Source: Octopus sinensis
Taxonomy: Eukaryota
Assembly: GCF_006345805.1 (NCBI RefSeq)
Contig: NC_042999.1
Location: 99,696,001 to 99,760,000 of the forward strand
Length of the DNA stretch: 64,000 nt
Direction: 5' to 3'
Of the stretch, positions 3,641 to 42,150 are shown one piece after another. Positions within the stretch are counted from its first letter, which is position 1. Every line of letters starts with the position of its first letter. Below the pieces are notes generated by a model, which saw nothing but the letters and a program-made list of their open reading frames with translations, made no database searches and was not told the DNA's origin. Both the position numbers and the translations under genes were made by a program.

Positions 3641-5031
3641 TTGGTTTTCAGGACAATTGTTTGCGACTGTCCCCCACGGCATTCAATGCCGCTGTGTTTT
3701 GGCGTCTCGTTTCAAGAAAAGTTGAAAGGTGACCTGCAATCTGGGTGTCAGTCATAAACCAGTATGTTTTGGAATATTTACACTTATATCCGCGAAATAA
3801 ATTTTCAGAATTTATCACATAAAATGACATTTGAAAACATCGCATTTCTTTTGCGGTTCAGTGTATTACTAATGGAAATTCCTGCTGTTTGACTTAGTCA
3901 CTGAGAGTGATTGAAGAGGAAATTTCGGTCAAAAGCCGCATATTATAAGATTCTATATGCTATCAGATTTAAAATATGCTTATAAACAACAGAGTTATAC
4001 AATTTCCATCAACACTTCTTCATCCTGTTTTACTGATTATCATTAACAAGATTAATAACAGTTGCATCATGGTACAAGTGAGCATAGATCTATTGTTTGT
4101 TATTTCTCCTGCACTAAATCATAGCTGATAACATATTTTCATAGTATATCCAATTTATTACCGAACACGTCTTATAATTTATCTAATATTCATGCTACTT
4201 GCCGAGATTACTGATTAATACAGTGTAACATAATAATTTTGATTTATACAAACAGACGAAATTATAACACACAAGGAATTTTACACAAATAATCATTGCA
4301 TTATATTTATCTACACAAGAAAAATCCAAAAACAGATTTAGGAACACGCATCATTAAGATTAAAAATAATGCTTTTAAAATGTCTACAAAACATTATCAG
4401 GTCATTTTTGTGCACTAGTTGGCTTTCTTTCTTTGATCATAGGCAGCTGGACTTCACAGGAGACGTACATATTTTGGATGTGTCCCACTTACGGGGAGAA
4501 TAATAACGTGATAATATTTTTCTTTATATCAATCTTTTATTTCAAGTATACAGAAATGGAAATGGAATATTTGGCTAGTAATTTAGAGAAAATATACATC
4601 ATATACAATATAGTTTATAATACTGTCAATATAAGCGATGAATGATTAAATATTACAGAGTGCATACTATATACACTATAATCTCACATATACTATATGT
4701 AGTTACAAATCCAAAGCACGTGATGAAATTCTTACAATGTATAAAGGAGTTAAAAGACATTATTTCTGCAAAACTTTCTCTTAAAATGACGTCAACTTGA
4801 AGCTATTTCTTAACCATATACATTATCTAGAGGAACCAATGATTGTAGAAGCACTTTGCTTTCTTAATTCGGAGAGTAATAAGAATGATAATACAGAGTC
4901 CATCCGAAGGAGTCAACAAACCAACTTTTCTTGGCTGGCAGTAATCTATATTAAACATGATTTCTGGAGTATATTCTTCATTGCCTGCAAACATGATGAA
5001 TGAGAGGATATACAGGAATAGAGTATATATG

Positions 5032-5076
<45 letters not shown>

Positions 5077-5117
5077 TATATATAATATATATATACATGT
5101 ACAATATACATGTATAT

Positions 5118-5162
<45 letters not shown>

Positions 5163-5291
5163 CATGTACATATATACATGTATATATTATATATATATAT
5201 ATATACATGTGTATATATGTATATATATGTATTATATATATATAATATACATGTACATATATACATGTGTATATATGTATTATATATAATA

Positions 5292-5333
<42 letters not shown>

Positions 5334-5874
5334 GCACACACACACATAACTTTAATTAAATATAGGAACAGAAAAATTGTACTAAACAGAGGAAGAAACA
5401 AGCAGGGCATTTCTTCTTACACGGTACAAGAAATCAATAAAAAGAAATGGTCGCACAAAAGATTGGAGTTACATTCTATTCTCCTCGCGGGGATTGAAAC
5501 ATGTCCGACATTTTCTTTAAACTCTAATAACAGCGGAACCCATAGAAACGGGAATAATTACTGTGCATCGGTAACAATATCAAGAAAAAACAATAACTAA
5601 CAGTAAAATAACACAAACTACATTATTCACTCTAAGACTACACACAGGCACGCGCGCGTGCACGCACACACATTCACGTATACCCACATTTGTGTATGCG
5701 CGCATGTAAATATAAACAATGTGAGAGTATCTATGTTTTGATTGTTGCCATGTTATTCTAACATAGTTTGAGGTTTGTCAGCTTCCAGAGGAATGAGATG
5801 TCGAGTTGAAAATAAGCAATCATATATTATGAACTTTCACGTATATTTTTCTTAATTTTCGTATTTTCATGACA

Positions 5875-5917
<43 letters not shown>

Positions 5918-6289
5918 AATTGTACCGTTCTGTTATTCCTGGGATCAACAAAAATAGTACTCCATCCATTTTGAGATAAATATCATTTAATATACACAGG
6001 ATTTAAATGCGAGCTATTATTAGTTTCATGCCTCTAAAATACAAAAGTCAAACTTGTATACCATAGCGTGTATTTCTAGGCAATTGTTCAGACTCGAAAT
6101 ACAGCATGGCTGCTCTTTGTGAAAAGCGGGAAAGCACGAGAAGGACGAGAAGAAGAATTTAAGAGAAGGCAGAGGTAAAGGAATTATGGGTTGCGTCTCT
6201 TGGGTCCGTTTAAATATTAATATGGTCGGTGTAATTAATCCAACAATGAAAGTTTTAAATTTGTGATACTACACGGTTATTACAGAGAA

Positions 6290-6790
6290 GGTGGTGTTTT
6301 AATGGAACTTTCAGAGCTAGAATTCAGTAAGTCAGTAGAGTTCGTCGATCTAAAATGGAAAGATCTTTCAGCTATATAAAGCCTGCATCTCTTTATTCCG
6401 TTGATGTATGCCATGTTTCGCCTCATGATGTTACATGTAATAAAGTTTGGCGAATTCAGATCCCATATATGGCTAGCTAACTTCAAGGTCTCCCTTTTAT
6501 CCTCGTGTCGGAAAGAAGACTGATAGGTGGCATATAATTCTAAGTCACTTTAGAAAGTAATTTTCTTTCAAGTTTCAGTATTTTAGAGCATTAAAGTAAC
6601 TTCTGCCTCAAAAGCTATTGAACTTAACCTTACAAGCTTAGTTGAGTGCGCAGGGTTTTGGTCGTCTCATACAGTTAAAATTTGGACTTGATATTTGATG
6701 CAACTTGCGCCTGATAATATTTTTTATGTTGGGGCAGCAGCTGTATGAAACCTCTACCGAATATCTATTAAATATTTTTAGAGATTAGAT
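6290..6790 (-). mobile_element. Penelope-like element remnant (linker plus GIY-YIG endonuclease C-terminal region), frameshifted
   Basis: Manual minus-strand translation gives LKIFNRYSVEVSYSCCPNIKNII, NCMRRPKPCALN, and SSFRHEDKRETLKLASHIWDLN...AYINGIKRCRL...DLLNSSSE. These match the typical Penelope motifs KIFNRNTVKxSYSCxPN, CNC..CPL and SF....ELSKYIW...KRCxLC...LLN. Confidence 0.75.
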
Positions 6791-6799
6791 GCTATTCGT

Positions 6800-7100
6800 A
6801 TGGAATACATCATCAATTAATTACGGACCATGCATTTTCAGTTCTATTATGTTATGATCTGAGAAAATTGTCGGTGATGCCTTCACATCGTGGATACGTT
6901 CCATGTTATTTAGCGGAGGAATGTTGTTTCTGGTTGGAAAAAAAGTTTGTTTTGCTCCATGAACATCATTTTAGCGAGATCAAGCAGAAATTCTACCAAA
7001 TTGGCCTCTTTGTTTGTTATTCCTGAGATTATGTCACCTTCAGGTCATCTGATAAAGGGGAAGTTGAAGTCACCCATCAGAAGCACGTAATTGTAATGTT
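6800..7100 (-). mobile_element. LINE (CR1/L2-like) apurinic endonuclease remnant
   Basis: Minus strand encodes VLLMGDFNFPFIR*PEG, FPTRNN and PTIFSDHNIIEL: the GDFN, PTR and SDH motifs of LINE APE domains, in the expected order. Confidence 0.75.
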
Positions 7101-7129
7101 TAATTAAACACTACTGTCTATATCACGCT

Positions 7130-7708
7130 CAGAGATTTAATATAGCTTATTTCTTCTTTTTCGAGATCAGCGACGGTTTGTCGCTGGAAAAAGCATATAG
7201 TATTTTGCTAGTGGAGTGATTTTTCATTACTAACTGGCGGTTAACACACGCTGAGGACGGATAACCACCCAGAAACTCGAGTCCGTGTGTATCACGTAAT
7301 GGTAGATATGGGAGCGATGACTTCCCCTCGCAAATATTAATCGAACGCAGAATGTGTGTCGTTAGCCAGCTGGAAGAGATGTTTTCCTGGGGTTATAAGA
7401 GAGAACGAGACAGATAAGAAGAGAGACAGCACAGCGATGGTTTTGGCTGTCATCCTGTACTCCCGTTGTTGCTAGCGAAATGGTATGTGCCGGCTGTCTG
7501 AGCAAACACGCTACTTTTATTGGCGGAACAAACAGGACAAAAAGATTAGAAAAATAGCGATTCTCACATTGAAACTAACAATTTTGAAGATACTTTTACA
7601 TTACAGAACACCCCGCTCTCTTCTTCATGCATCCATGTTTAAAATTTCAGAGCGATTGGATGAACAACCCGGTTTATAAGCGCACAAACAGACAAACAAG
7701 CAAAACAG

Positions 7709-24030: not shown

Positions 24031-27000
24031 ATGATAATGATGATGATGATAATAACAACAATAATAATAATAATAATAACAATAATAATAATAATAAAAT
24101 ACGGGAAATACAGAAAGCAACAGTATAAGTCAATGCATTACGAAGTGAGAAAAGGAAGAAGCTTATTTTTTATGCTTAGAACTGAAGTACCCAGACATTG
24201 AAACCTCTATTGCAAACTTGGATTGAAGTGATTACAGGTTGATATGGTTGGATGTTAAGATTTTCGTAATGATAATGATAAAGTTATTTATCCTTATATG
24301 CTATTTTGGTGCAATGCCATCTTTGTCTATGCTTGCGTTGTTGCTTTTTCCAATTTATCAGTGTTGTCTACATCTACAGTAATACTCGTCTCAATTACTT
24401 TTATTCTATGAGAAAGATCCATAGGAAAGTCTGTTGCGCTTATCTTGATAACACACTACAGCTTAAACAATTCTGGAAGATTCTGAAGCTTTTTCATATT
24501 CTTCAAATATCTGTTTCCCAAATAGCTTATTCTTCCTTCACATTTAGTCCGAAATTTACGCTTATGATATACAAGTTTTCTTATATTTATATATAGAAAT
24601 TTCAAGAACTCATATAGAAATTTAAACAACTCTCTTAAATATAGAACTGAACTCATATTTTGTTGATGCAACTTGTAATATTGCTGGTAATAGTCGAACT
24701 GAGGGAGCATTTTTTCCACAATCTGACAATGAAAAGTTAGCTATTAACCTGACAGATAGCTCATAAAAATAACACTGGCATCCTTGATGGTGCATTTCAA
24801 TCAACTTAATCGTTGTCATAAAACTTGTAATGTTAAATGATTGAAACATGAATACGTAAACTTAAGTGTATTTTCCAACTACAGAAAATTCATAAATCGA
24901 AATGGGAAATCCCATAGATATGTATAATGTATTATGAAACCGCTAGCCATAATATGGTGATAAAGTATTCATAATTTTACCTATCTTTTTAACTAACACA
25001 TTATGAACTAACATCTTGGTCTCAGGATATTTTTCTTGGAAGTAGAAATTATTCAAATCACTTATCTGTATTCGAATAAAGTTGCAAATTTCTTCTTATG
25101 CCAAATAATATTATTACTTCAAACAAAACAAAACAATGTGATATCCTTTTTTATTAGGTTTATTCTCAATAACTCCTAGAGTCAAAGATGCGTGCATCCC
25201 GCTAGATAATTGTCGCGAAGAATCTACAGGAATTTTCTTGAAAAGCCCTGTAAAAGGTGGTTACAATTATCATCCGCAGACTGGCATCAAATCTACAATA
25301 GAAAAAATGGTTTCAGAACCTCGTGAAATTATCTTCAATCAAGAAATCCAAAGAGACTTCAGGACATAAGATATTATCCCAAAACTTTTATTTCTTTTTG
25401 TCCGGAATTTCAGAAGAATTACTGTAAAATATGTGGTAAGATTCTGACAATAATTATCATCTGATATTGCTTTGTGTTTGAAGCCATTTCATTCTTTCTT
25501 TCATGTTTACTTTACAGGTAAAAGAATCCCATACAAATTTTTATCTGCAAAGTAAAAGAACGAATGTAGACATATTTTCTTACCTTACCTGTACCTTCAA
25601 TAGAGCATAACATCCGTTTCGTGTTTGTATTAGATCAACTTTTAACTTCAAATTATAATTACCACCTGCAAGATCTTATCATTGTCATTCCTATTTGTAC
25701 AAACACCTTTTATTCTTCAAAAATTAAGCGTTTGGTATATATGCTTGCCTCAATATCTTTACTGGAATTCTATAAGGCTAACAATAAATGAAAGTTTATT
25801 TGAGAATAAACTTTTAAAGCATATTGTATTTTGTACCAATGGAACATGATAGCATCTCAAGAATCAATACGAATGCTATTACCAATATTTTGATTTTACG
25901 AATGAATATTACCACAAGGATTGTTCTCGACACATCAAACAGAAGTGGGCTTTCTAATATTCCGTATGAATGTATTATAGCGAGGTTATTTCCGTTCACA
26001 AGTGCATGTAAAATGTGAGGATGTGTTTATAACCTGTTAGATCTTGTAAGCGAGTTCAACACGGTAGATTTTAATCGTATATGGATTTTGTATTTTGTGA
26101 ATTGCAAAATGTACTAAAAAGTGAAGAAAATATGTTTTCCTGTGGTTTTATAGAGGTTTACAGTTTTTCACGTTGAAGAGGATGTCCAAGCAAGGTGCAG
26201 TAGAATCTCGTTGTGTCATTAAGGAAAATAATTTATATGTTTAGTGCTCACAATTATGAAAATGGCTAAAAGTTAATTTGTTGTCTGCAGAAAACAGAGA
26301 TGCGCGGAGGATTGTATGGAGAGGAACATTTTCCCTCTGTACATCGAAGGCATAACTAAAAAGCTGCTGTTAGTGTTATTGAGATGATCTATGAGTTCAG
26401 ATCAACTATGATAGATCATAGTATAGACAAACTGATCATCCAGTCTTTTTTTCAAATAGTATATTTAATATTAGATTAGTCACTAGCATGTTTTTTTTTT
26501 CTGTGAAATTTGGCTGCAATTTTCAGTCGGTTGATTGGCCATGAAGGAGATCACCTCTTTAATACGTTGTTGTTGACGATGATGTTGTCGTTCTTGTTGC
26601 ATTATGGTGTTTGTTGGACATCTATTTCAAGTAGATGTGAAGTTTAGATGGAAGTAATATAATATACAGTCATACGATAAATGTTTGAATTCAGTTTCAG
26701 AGATATCCGTGGATTTTGTTTTGTTTTTGTTTTATTACTTGTAAGTAATTGCTATCATGGCAAGTCTGGACAGATTGCAACTACAGGTTTTTATATGATT
26801 GGGTTATTAAGAGTATTAATTCTCACATCAAAATGGGACTATTTTCTGATATGCGTTAGAAACTCAGCATTTTCAATTTGAAGAAATAAGGAATATATTA
26901 TTACCATCTTTATGCATCAAATGTAATTTGGGAATATTTTGTAGTATTATGTATAAGAAATGACATCTTTGAACATAATGTCAAAGAATAAAATTTCTTG

Positions 27001-40421: not shown

Positions 40422-40835
40422 CAAAGACATAGAATTTAATGAAATTAGAACAGATTGACACATTAGTACAATTATACCTAAAATCTCCATGAAGTTAAGG
40501 AGATAGACAAAGAACATATTGTACTTAGGTATAATCATACTAATGTGACCATCTGTTCTAATCTAATTAAATTCTGCAACCATACTCATGTCTCATTACT
40601 ACTTCCTGTAACTATCTTTGGGAATTTACCATGCAAAGCCTTCTCTTGCCAGTCAGATAATCCCTATGTCTTATTGTGACTCTAGCGGCTCTTAGTACAC
40701 TTTCTTCACTATTACCTATATACTTGCGTTTATAAGAAGCGTCTAATGGGTATTGTACGATACAAAGAAGGTGATATTTCGAACGCAGTATTACTGTTAA
40801 AACAGCAGAAATAATGGGTAATATTACCTTTATAA

Positions 40836-41077
40836 CGTTATCTAATTTATTTACATTTGACGGATATCTATCCTCCTCTTCTTTGTTGTTAACACAACGC
40901 TTCGCCTGATATACCCACCAGCCTTCATCAGGTGTCTTGGGGAAATTTCAAACCTGGGTTCTCATTCCTAAGGTATTTTTTTATGTTGTTGTTGTTGTAG
41001 TCGGGTAGTCATGATGGGTTGAGCTTTGTATATTTTACCCCAGTGTCACTTTGATGGCATGCACTGCTCTTTCACTC

Positions 41078-41141
<64 letters not shown>

Positions 41142-41290
41142 TCGTGAAATACCTTAGGAATGAGACCCTTGGTTCGAAATTTCCCCAAGACACCGGATGA
41201 AGGCTGGAGAGTTTATCAACCGAAACGTTGTATTAACAAGATGAGGATATAAATAATGTACATAATTCCTCAACTCTTAAATATAGAACT
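40836..41290. mobile_element. Inverted-repeat element carrying two divergent hammerhead-like motifs, 15-bp TSD
   Basis: Arms ~40845-40980 and ~41140-41260 are reverse complements; TSD ATATTACCTTTATAA at 40821-40835 and 41291-41305. Confidence 0.8.
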
Positions 41291-42150
41291 ATATTACCTT
41301 TATAAGACGGAAAAAGTTGTCAACAAATAGTCATTGGAGTTGACCCCATATTCCCTAAGACACCAGCTGAATGCTTTGCCATTAAGCTAAACTACCCCCT
41401 GACAACTTATCCACCGATTTTAGACGCTAAATAGATAGCTTATTGAAATGTAATGACCACGTATGTATAAATAAACAAACTTACATTTGTTTTTAATTAG
41501 AAGCGTCAAATGTGTATTACACGATACAGAGAAGATGGTGATATTTTCGAACGCAGCATTGCCGTTAAAACAGCAGAAATAATGGGTAATATTAGCCTTA
41601 CAAAACAGAAAAGCTTGTCAACAAACAGCCATGGGAGTCATTTTTACATAATCCAATATATTATTTCTTTTTAGTTTCGTTATTTTGCTGAAATAAGGCG
41701 ACCTCAGCTGCGTATTCAACTGAGCTAACTATGAAAGTCTGGACGAGGAAGGAAGTATCTGGGTTCCTGAAGTTACAGTTTGGAGTGGATGCCTGTTGTG
41801 GCTTAAGTGTAATAATGTTTTTCATTTTGGGGCTATAGTTGTTTCTAACAAAATTTTGTATGTATGTATGGGCACTGGATATCTTGCCCAGGCTTCTCTC
41901 TCGATCATGTCAATAGGGTAGTGACGGTTTGTGAGATGCTGTGAAAGACTTTTTGAACTTGAAATTGTAAGTCACGCAATCGCCAGTCGGGTAAGAGGGC
42001 ACCACGGTGAACATGGAAGCCGCGGGAGCGAACCTAGTTGAAGCCAACCGCGGGTGCAATATTAATTAGCATGGGTGTTGCTATGAGCAACGTTTTGGGA
42101 TAGTTTTTCTCGGTCGCGAGTGGACAGTGGTCATGTATGTGTGTATGTAT

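What the first reader, a model, noticed from the sequence alone, without database searches (positions are those of the whole stretch)
40735..41640. TSD-flanked fold-back element with two outward-facing hammerheads and a nearby empty-site paralogue
Seen: a 455-bp insert (40836-41290) between perfect 15-bp direct repeats. Its inverted arms each hold GACAC-CUGAUGA-A-GGCUG..CAGCC-GAAACGU-U-GUGUU-type motifs (40891-40936 minus; 41189-41234 plus). Each copy has a different core lesion (GAAG vs CGGAUGA), so together they reconstruct an intact ribozyme. The centre holds (GTT)n, a short unique piece and (AAT)n. A diverged paralogue at 41500-41640 reads through the site without the insert, supporting one insertion event. 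Known: minimal Penelope hammerheads with ACGU stem III cleave as dimers, and retrozymes normally carry direct, not inverted, hammerhead repeats. Inference: a small non-coding mobile unit with inverted ribozyme termini, so a transcript from either strand would carry a ribozyme near its 3' end and form a long hairpin.
Basis: partly seen in the sequence, partly recalled or inferred. Interest (0 to 1): 0.75.

Follow-up and report, generated by a model that had tools for sequence, protein, structure and literature searches.

The report
Head-to-head Penelope retrotransposon ends
The 455-base fold-back is two worn, back-to-back end pieces of an abundant protein-coding Penelope jumping gene, likely laid down in one insertion, with a scrap of another repeat between them, so it is a known pattern rather than a new mobile unit; the parent family is unusual in starting at a tRNA-like sequence that may serve as its promoter.

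Summary
Observation confirmed: perfect 15-bp target duplication, 455-bp insert, two outward minimal hammerheads, each mutated in the core. It is not a stand-alone non-coding unit. Each arm is the terminal repeat plus the first codons of a protein-coding Penelope/Poseidon-type retrotransposon (6,045 exact hammerhead 23-mers in the genome). Of 89 sampled insertions, 43 are head-to-head pairs, 225-1,538 bp long. 32 of them have the ~30-nt tail on one arm only, none on both. 24 have duplications, mostly 12-15 bp. This arrangement is published. The 'unique' centre is the 3' end of another abundant (AAT)n-tailed repeat. The 'paralogue' is the neighbouring tandem unit of a tRNA-headed host repeat. 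Hammerhead cores decay like neighbouring bases (5.3 vs 5.4%). Family-level oddity, absent from this insert: a tRNA-like module at which 33 of 50 arm 5' ends stop, and no T4 run on the sense strand, which suggests a Pol III promoter (untested; RNA reads inconclusive). The scan reported this family and that idea before on other DNA.

The parts
40821..40835 (.). Left copy of the 15-bp target-site duplication
40836..40985 (-). Left arm: Penelope pLTR/ORF-start piece, short (tail-less) 3' end facing outward, 11 substitutions in 126 sites against the family majority
40891..40936 (-). Minimal type I hammerhead, damaged (core change at 40900, stem II mismatch at 40905)
40986..40998 (-). Remnant of the family's (AAC/AAT)n tract, where the left arm is cut off
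40999..41077 (+). Last ~80 nt of another abundant (AAT)n-tailed repeat (family 'M', about 600 nt when whole)
41078..41139 (+). (AAT)n tract: tail of M and/or the Penelope pLTR microsatellite
41140..41290 (+). Right arm: pLTR/ORF-start piece with ATG at 41160 and the ~31-nt tail (about 41260-41290); 11 substitutions in 126 sites against the majority
41189..41234 (+). Minimal type I hammerhead, damaged (core change at 41195, stem II at 41219, stem I at 41232)
41291..41305 (.). Right copy of the target-site duplication
40729..40820 (-). Host repeat unit, part downstream of the insertion (tRNA-sense)
41306..41492 (-). Host repeat unit, upstream part, with a tRNA-like head at 41325-41396 (Rfam RF00005, 31.7 bits)
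41493..41640 (-).

Best explanation
The insert is two short, head-to-head end pieces of a protein-coding Penelope/Poseidon-type retrotransposon, likely made in one integration event in which the element's enzyme would nick both strands 15 bp apart and prime one cDNA from each nick. Shown: each arm is the family's pLTR/ORF junction; the right arm ends after the ~31-nt tail and the left at the inner, tail-less end; a 15-bp duplication flanks the pair; the centre is the 3' end of an unrelated (AAT)n-tailed repeat; both hammerheads are mutated. Inferred from the anole PAc biochemistry (two internal RT start sites a little way into the ORF, both strands cut): one cDNA starts at each site and runs towards the RNA's 5' end, only about 300 nt away when the 5' pLTR is the template. 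The two cDNA ends are joined at short palindromes or in the microsatellite. The foreign 80 nt most likely entered the AAT tract later (about 55%); otherwise it came in on a donor RNA that already held it. The ribozymes are passengers decaying neutrally.
For: The arm follows a tRNA-like module and AAT tract downstream of an RT-containing ORF (Pfam RVT_1 on 2 of 3 frames; homologues up to 855 aa). It runs directly into the ORF's N-terminus in 17 of 25 loci, and the majority arm is an open frame from its ATG resembling the start of full-length P0003. There are 6,045 exact 23-mers, control 0. 43 of 89 insertions are head-to-head pairs: 32 long+short, 0 long+long, 2 short+short, 9 unclassed; Fisher p = 1e-7. 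Duplication score >= 8 in 24 of 43 against 2.25% of 400 shuffled pairings, 18 of the 24 being 12-15 bp. Foreign AAT-tailed pieces lie just upstream of the arm in 11 of 89, in 5 nested between the tRNA-like module plus AAT and the arm. Core decay 5.3% against 5.4% non-core non-CpG; 19 of 38 partner arms keep the core. Published pattern: PMC8557442, PMC3846280, PMC4209133, PMC11167929.
Against: The two arms here differ at 22 of 126 sites while the duplication is perfect (chance about 6%) and share no variant. Across pairs the arms are no more alike than random arms (10.6 vs 10.7%), with only a small excess of shared variants (30 sites, p = 0.0035) and no correlation of divergence, so a common age is not shown. 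19 of 43 pairs have no clear duplication. No Pfam GIY-YIG hit on this family's own frames, and the longest open frame around the 150 scored matches was 551 aa. No AAT precedes the central piece, unlike the full nested cases, and its divergence (4 of 82) is not significantly below the arms' (p = 0.34). No orthologous empty site was seen. The sample is biased: the first hits on one contig, and pairs have two chances of being picked.
Confidence: 0.88

Rival explanations
1. One reading: a small non-coding fold-back element with inverted ribozyme ends that transposes as a unit.
For: Inverted two-arm structures with duplications recur; most are short and non-coding.
Against: Lengths of 225-1,538 bp and differing inner junctions, some reaching into the ORF; the arm is continuous with the coding ORF; the composite junction was in 0 of 40 other matches; no selection on the core.
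Confidence: 0.04
2. Two independent insertions that happen to be opposed, the 15-bp repeat belonging to one of them.
For: The arms share no variants and differ by 17.5%; 39 of 89 copies were scored single.
Against: The duplication flanks both arms; long and short ends are strictly paired (0 long+long among 34 classed pairs); at least a third of insertions are pairs even after halving for double sampling.
Confidence: 0.04
3. Same element, other route to the inversion: one template and self-priming (fold-back) at a palindrome, as proposed for rotifer Penelope, instead of two cDNAs primed from two nicks.
For: Junctions cluster at palindromes: a 12-nt one just before the tRNA-like module and shorter ones inside it; small excess of shared variants within pairs; proposed in PMC3846280 (passages).
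Against: Many joints put unequal parts of the element head to head, with no mirror centre; PAc cuts and extends both strands in vitro.
Confidence: 0.3
4. The central piece was copied in the same event, from a donor RNA with M already in its AAT tract or by a template jump at (AAU)n, and was not inserted later.
For: No AAT before its 5' end here; L144 joins an inverted arm directly to an M 3' piece; capture of unrelated sequence between pLTRs is published (PMC3846280).
Against: In 5 sampled loci the foreign element has AAT on both sides inside an otherwise complete pLTR; M copies look younger (18 copies, mostly 1-5%) than the arms (about 6%).
Confidence: 0.4

Closest known systems
EN+ Penelope insertions with an inverted pLTR, tail and TSD (Adineta vaga Pen2a, PMC3846280, passages read; overview in PMC8557442, passages read)
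   Same: Inverted 5'-truncated pLTR head to head, ~31-bp tail on one end, pLTR holding the first codons of the ORF, target duplication, palindromes at the junction, foreign sequence between solo pLTRs.
   Different: Duplications here are mostly 12-15 bp (8-10 there); this family's pLTR opens with a tRNA-like module and an AAT tract, where the rotifer element has TATA/Inr-like motifs.
PAc, Poseidon of Anolis carolinensis (PMC11167929, parts 1-2 of 4 read)
   Same: Hammerhead at the pLTR-ORF junction; two 3' end points a tail's length apart inside the ORF start; AT-rich target; homologues of similar length.
   Different: The whole hammerhead lies after the ATG here; the parts read describe no tRNA-like head; PAc was active in vitro, whereas this family looks decayed in the copies seen.
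Minimal hammerheads of metazoan PLEs (PMC4209133, parts 1-2 of 4 read)
   Same: 5-bp helix I, extra base before helix II, palindromic helix III; dual motifs 100-700 bp apart on opposite strands already reported in Schistosoma.
   Different: Both motifs here are mutated; helix II is about 5 bp.
Non-LTR retrozymes (PMC7229834, passages; bioRxiv 10.64898/2026.07.22.740005, part 1 of 5)
   Same: Short, hammerhead-bearing, PLE-related.
   Different: Retrozymes are direct tandem non-coding repeats; this is an inverted pair of a coding element's ends.
TRIMp3: Cassandra, Helenus, Ajax (PMC10886601, passages read)
   Same: tRNA- or 5S-derived sequence inside a terminal repeat, proposed Pol III promoter (family level only).
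   Different: Those are non-autonomous LTR elements; here the module sits in front of a protein-coding Penelope ORF.
Dong/R4-type LINEs that target TAA microsatellites (PMC3812793, passages read)
   Same: One of the two foreign families found in the AAT tract has RHD/RPD motifs, recalled as typical of REL-endonuclease LINEs, and an AAT tail.
   Different: Clade not tested; the piece in this window belongs to the other family, M, whose class was not determined.

Membership tests
EN+ Penelope/Poseidon PLE | Single ORF with reverse transcriptase | tested here: met
   Pfam RVT_1 on L095 and L098, not on L091; 551-aa frame with 1,697 homologues
EN+ Penelope/Poseidon PLE | C-terminal GIY-YIG endonuclease | tested here: inconclusive
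   No Pfam hit on this family's frames; a YSIPCSCG..Y.GET motif is seen by eye; homologue P0064 (42% identity, 97% cover) passes PF01541
EN+ Penelope/Poseidon PLE | pLTR with a minimal hammerhead that overlaps or abuts the ORF start | tested here: met
EN+ Penelope/Poseidon PLE | Inverted 5'-truncated copy at the 5' end, and partial tandems | tested here: met
   43 of 89 are pairs; tandem junction in L246
EN+ Penelope/Poseidon PLE | 30-40 bp tail at one end only | tested here: met
   32 long+short, 0 long+long
EN+ Penelope/Poseidon PLE | Placement in the clade by RT phylogeny; no Neptune/Nematis zinc-finger linker | not tested
   No tree with named references; no CxxC linker seen by eye in L091/L095
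Active hammerhead ribozyme (these two copies) | Intact core and helices | tested here: not met
   Core and stem changes in both arms
Active hammerhead ribozyme (family) | Self-cleavage | not testable with these tools
   The majority motif is intact; needs an assay
Non-LTR retrozyme | Direct tandem repeats of a non-coding hammerhead unit | tested here: not met
   Inverted; unit continuous with an ORF
MITE / fold-back unit | Uniform length and recurring internal sequence | tested here: not met
   225-1,538 bp; junction in 0 of 40 other matches
tRNA-derived SINE (this insert) | A/B-box head | tested here: not met
   No tRNA-like module between the arms
Pol III-driven element (parent family) | tRNA-derived head at the RNA 5' end | tested here: inconclusive
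   ARAGORN at default 0 of 21 loci, no Rfam tRNA hit; relaxed -ps85 gives 12 calls on 114 copies against 0 shuffled; 33 of 50 arm ends stop at the head
Pol III-driven element (parent family) | No internal T4 terminator | tested here: inconclusive
   0 runs in two overlapping majority scaffolds (2,219 and 1,975 nt), shuffle P 0.015-0.11; a control LINE is also poor in T4 runs
Pol III-driven element (parent family) | Pol III occupancy, or 5'-triphosphate RNA starting at the head | not testable with these tools
   Unstranded RNA-seq of a related organism shows no sharp start

The most novel reading that the evidence does not exclude
The parent is a protein-coding Penelope element transcribed by RNA polymerase III from a tRNA-derived promoter at the front of its pLTR. 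Because reverse transcription starts only about 300 nt from that start, one RNA yields both SINE-like short arms and, from the second pLTR, coding copies. Thousands of genomic pairs then record the in vivo start site and a strict one-tail/one-tail-less coupling of the two priming events, and the AAT tract serves as a landing pad for TAA-targeting retroelements.
Probability: 0.3. Interest if true: 0.72.

Novelty: new variant of a known kind. Interest (0 to 1): 0.38.

Why it matters
The insert itself is an ordinary, dead product of Penelope retrotransposition, and similar 'fold-back ribozyme' findings can be filed the same way. Two family-level points add something. First, the tail is never on both arms among 34 classed pairs, which turns a qualitative remark in print into a constraint on how the two RT start sites are used in vivo. 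Second, arm 5' ends stop sharply at a tRNA-like module. If that is a Pol III promoter for a coding retrotransposon, it raises the question of how an uncapped RNA is translated and may give the hammerhead a role. My searches listed no paper whose title, abstract or read passages describe such a promoter in a Penelope element; Repbase/Dfam entries, subscription papers and supplements were not seen.

Tried and rejected
Rfam scans found no hammerhead or tRNA family match on the arm or the tRNA-like module. Pfam missed three short frames and the 551-aa frame; no PDB sequence match. Folding single hammerheads did not beat shuffles (two of the four slices were mis-set, one missing most of the motif), as expected for a motif that needs a dimer. 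The test for a shared template within pairs was weak. No RNA holder was listed in the run search. Three raw RNA runs of a related organism laid 4,891-7,293 reads at 85% likeness, equally on both strands, with no place where many molecules begin or end: inconclusive. Contigs of four runs gave no listed joint for an empty site; two contigs cross the right junction at about 99% but with under 31 letters on the arm side, so they do not count as bridges. Dating the central piece against the arms was not significant. Chimeras with the foreign families were counted only in the 89-locus sample, not genome-wide. The host repeat has no canonical hammerhead core in its majority. Rejected: MITE or DNA transposon, retrozyme, SINE, chance opposed insertions.

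Full report
Observation. The sequence matches the description. A 15-bp direct repeat lies at 40821-40835 and 41291-41305 around 455 bp. The arms are 83% complementary over 111 nt and the insert folds as one long hairpin, z = -13.5. Each arm differs from the family majority at 11 of 126 sites, none shared. The left arm's last 11 bases look like a worn copy of the family's short terminal repeat, not extra sequence.

The arm is the end of a coding element. The genome (G000, 2.7 Gb) has 6,045 exact copies of a 23-mer across the hammerhead core, control 0. Upstream of the arm many copies have a tRNA-like module and an (AAT/AAC)n tract, and longer copies continue into the C-terminal half of an ORF. 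One locus has a 551-aa open frame; two others pass Pfam RVT_1. Homologues run up to 855 aa with RT annotation, three of the 120 listed also with GIY-YIG. In the other direction, the arm runs straight into the ORF's N-terminus in 17 of 25 loci found with the N-terminus of a full-length homologue (two of these loci are identical). The majority arm is itself an open frame from its ATG, whose continuation aligns with P0003 at 38%. So the arm is the pLTR-ORF junction, as in the anole element PAc (PMC11167929, parts 1-2 of 4). No intact copy was seen: the longest open frame around 150 scored matches was 551 aa.

How often, and in what form. I took the first 95 of the 100 listed 23-mer places (all on contig C1) and merged 6 second arms, leaving 89 insertions. 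43 are head-to-head pairs, 39 were scored single and 7 have an inverted piece without an arm. Pairs are over-sampled up to twofold, and pairs split by long nested inserts were missed, so a third to a half is the fair range. Ends fall into two classes, with or without a tail of about 30 nt: 32 pairs have one of each, 2 have two short ends, none has two long ends, 9 could not be classed (p = 1e-7). 24 of 43 have a duplication scoring 8 or more, against 2.25% of shuffled pairings; 18 of the 24 are 12-15 bp, and 2 lie in TA repeats and are doubtful. Lengths run from 225 to 1,538 bp. The window's insert is a typical short+long pair. This pattern is in print: inverted 5'-truncated copy and one-ended tail (PMC8557442, passages); the same with duplications, junction palindromes and foreign sequence between solo pLTRs (PMC3846280, passages); and minimal hammerheads 100-700 bp apart on opposite strands (PMC4209133, parts 1-2 of 4).

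The centre. The 80 nt at 40999-41077 are the 3' end of another abundant repeat of about 600 nt with an AAT tail. This family or an AAT-tailed LINE lies just upstream of the arm in 11 of 89 insertions. In 5 it sits between the tRNA-like module plus AAT and the arm, that is inside the tract, and L202 has the window's layout with the LINE in the middle. TAA-targeting Dong elements are known (PMC3812793, passages) and Dong-R4 LINEs are listed as recently active in an octopus (PMC13282606, passages); an earlier scan note calls this genome octopus, which I did not check. Here no AAT precedes the piece and its divergence is not significantly lower than the arms', so later insertion and capture at the time of integration both remain open. 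The junction between left arm and centre was in none of the 40 other matches listed.

The host. The target is a dispersed repeat (265 candidates, 40 scored) with a tRNA-like head on the minus strand, present here as one and a half head-to-tail units 298 bp apart. It does show the site once, which supports the boundaries, but it is not an orthologous empty allele; none was seen.

Are the ribozymes doing anything here? Probably not. In partner arms, which were not selected for the motif, core positions differ from the majority at 5.3% and non-core non-CpG positions at 5.4%; half keep an intact core (19 of 38). Minimal hammerheads showed no cleavage as monomers and little as dimers, and the PAc ribozyme needed the protein and was dispensable for insertion in vitro. 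A transcript of this insert would carry one mutated sense copy, paired with its antisense.

Mechanism. Shown: the anatomy above. Inferred: the enzyme cuts both strands about 12-15 bp apart and primes a cDNA at each nick, one at the tail end and one at the inner start site, and the two are joined head to head. Inner junctions cluster at palindromes. Fold-back on one template is a live rival; arms of a pair are no more alike than random arms, with a small excess of shared variants.

The family-level oddity. Of 81 arms that include the tRNA-like module (82 rows, one duplicate dropped; arms, not independent junctions), 31 end inside it. Of the 50 that reach its start, 33 stop there (12 of these scored -20 to -14 because the mirror copy aligns through the palindrome) and 17 run on, only one of which ends in the next 150 nt. 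Four ORF-bearing copies also begin at the module. That looks like an RNA 5' end. The module has A- and B-box-like motifs (consensus recalled), is missed by ARAGORN and Rfam at normal settings and gives 12 calls on 114 copies at a relaxed setting against 0 on shuffles. The majority sense strand has no T4 run, but a control LINE is also poor in them. RNA reads were uninformative. A Pol II start at the same place, or RT stalling at the palindrome, is not excluded. The closest published analogy I read is TRIMp3 (PMC10886601, passages). I had reached this reading before consulting the scan's notes, several of which report the same family and idea on other DNA; the T4 test was begun in the same turn and extended afterwards. 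The window's insert has lost this module.

Verdict. A real feature with a known arrangement, dead copies; moderate interest only through the parent family.

Noticed in passing
window 40729-40835 and 41291-41640 (minus strand); L157, L164, L169: The host is a ~300-bp tRNA-headed repeat that forms partial head-to-tail tandems and head-to-head inversions, like Penelope products. Its majority has a hammerhead-like layout with a non-canonical first box (CUGCUG...GAAA) and T4-T5 runs after the tRNA part. No earlier scan note matched it.
   Followed up: partly
L117, L171, L199, L202, L222, L226: The AAT tract of the pLTR repeatedly holds insertions of two AAT-tailed families, one a LINE with RHD/RPD motifs, the other a ~600-nt non-coding repeat.
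   Followed up: partly
L144:1307-1590: A tail-less inverted Penelope arm is joined head to head to the 3' piece of family M with no second arm: possibly two different RNAs used in one event.
   Followed up: partly
window 40431-40575: A second fold-back (51-nt arms, 88% complementary) just left of the finding; related sequence lies in L043/L213 and L105.
   Followed up: partly
window 24632-24648: An isolated exact 17-bp match to the end of the Penelope tail.
   Followed up: no
L241, just upstream of the hammerhead in the arm: About 150 bp of very GC-rich, foreign-looking sequence interrupts the arm.
   Followed up: no
P0003 residues 1-60: A full-length homologue from another source begins with a peptide like the translated arm (TPDDG..RCVNN), so the hammerhead core is read as codons there too.
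   Followed up: partly
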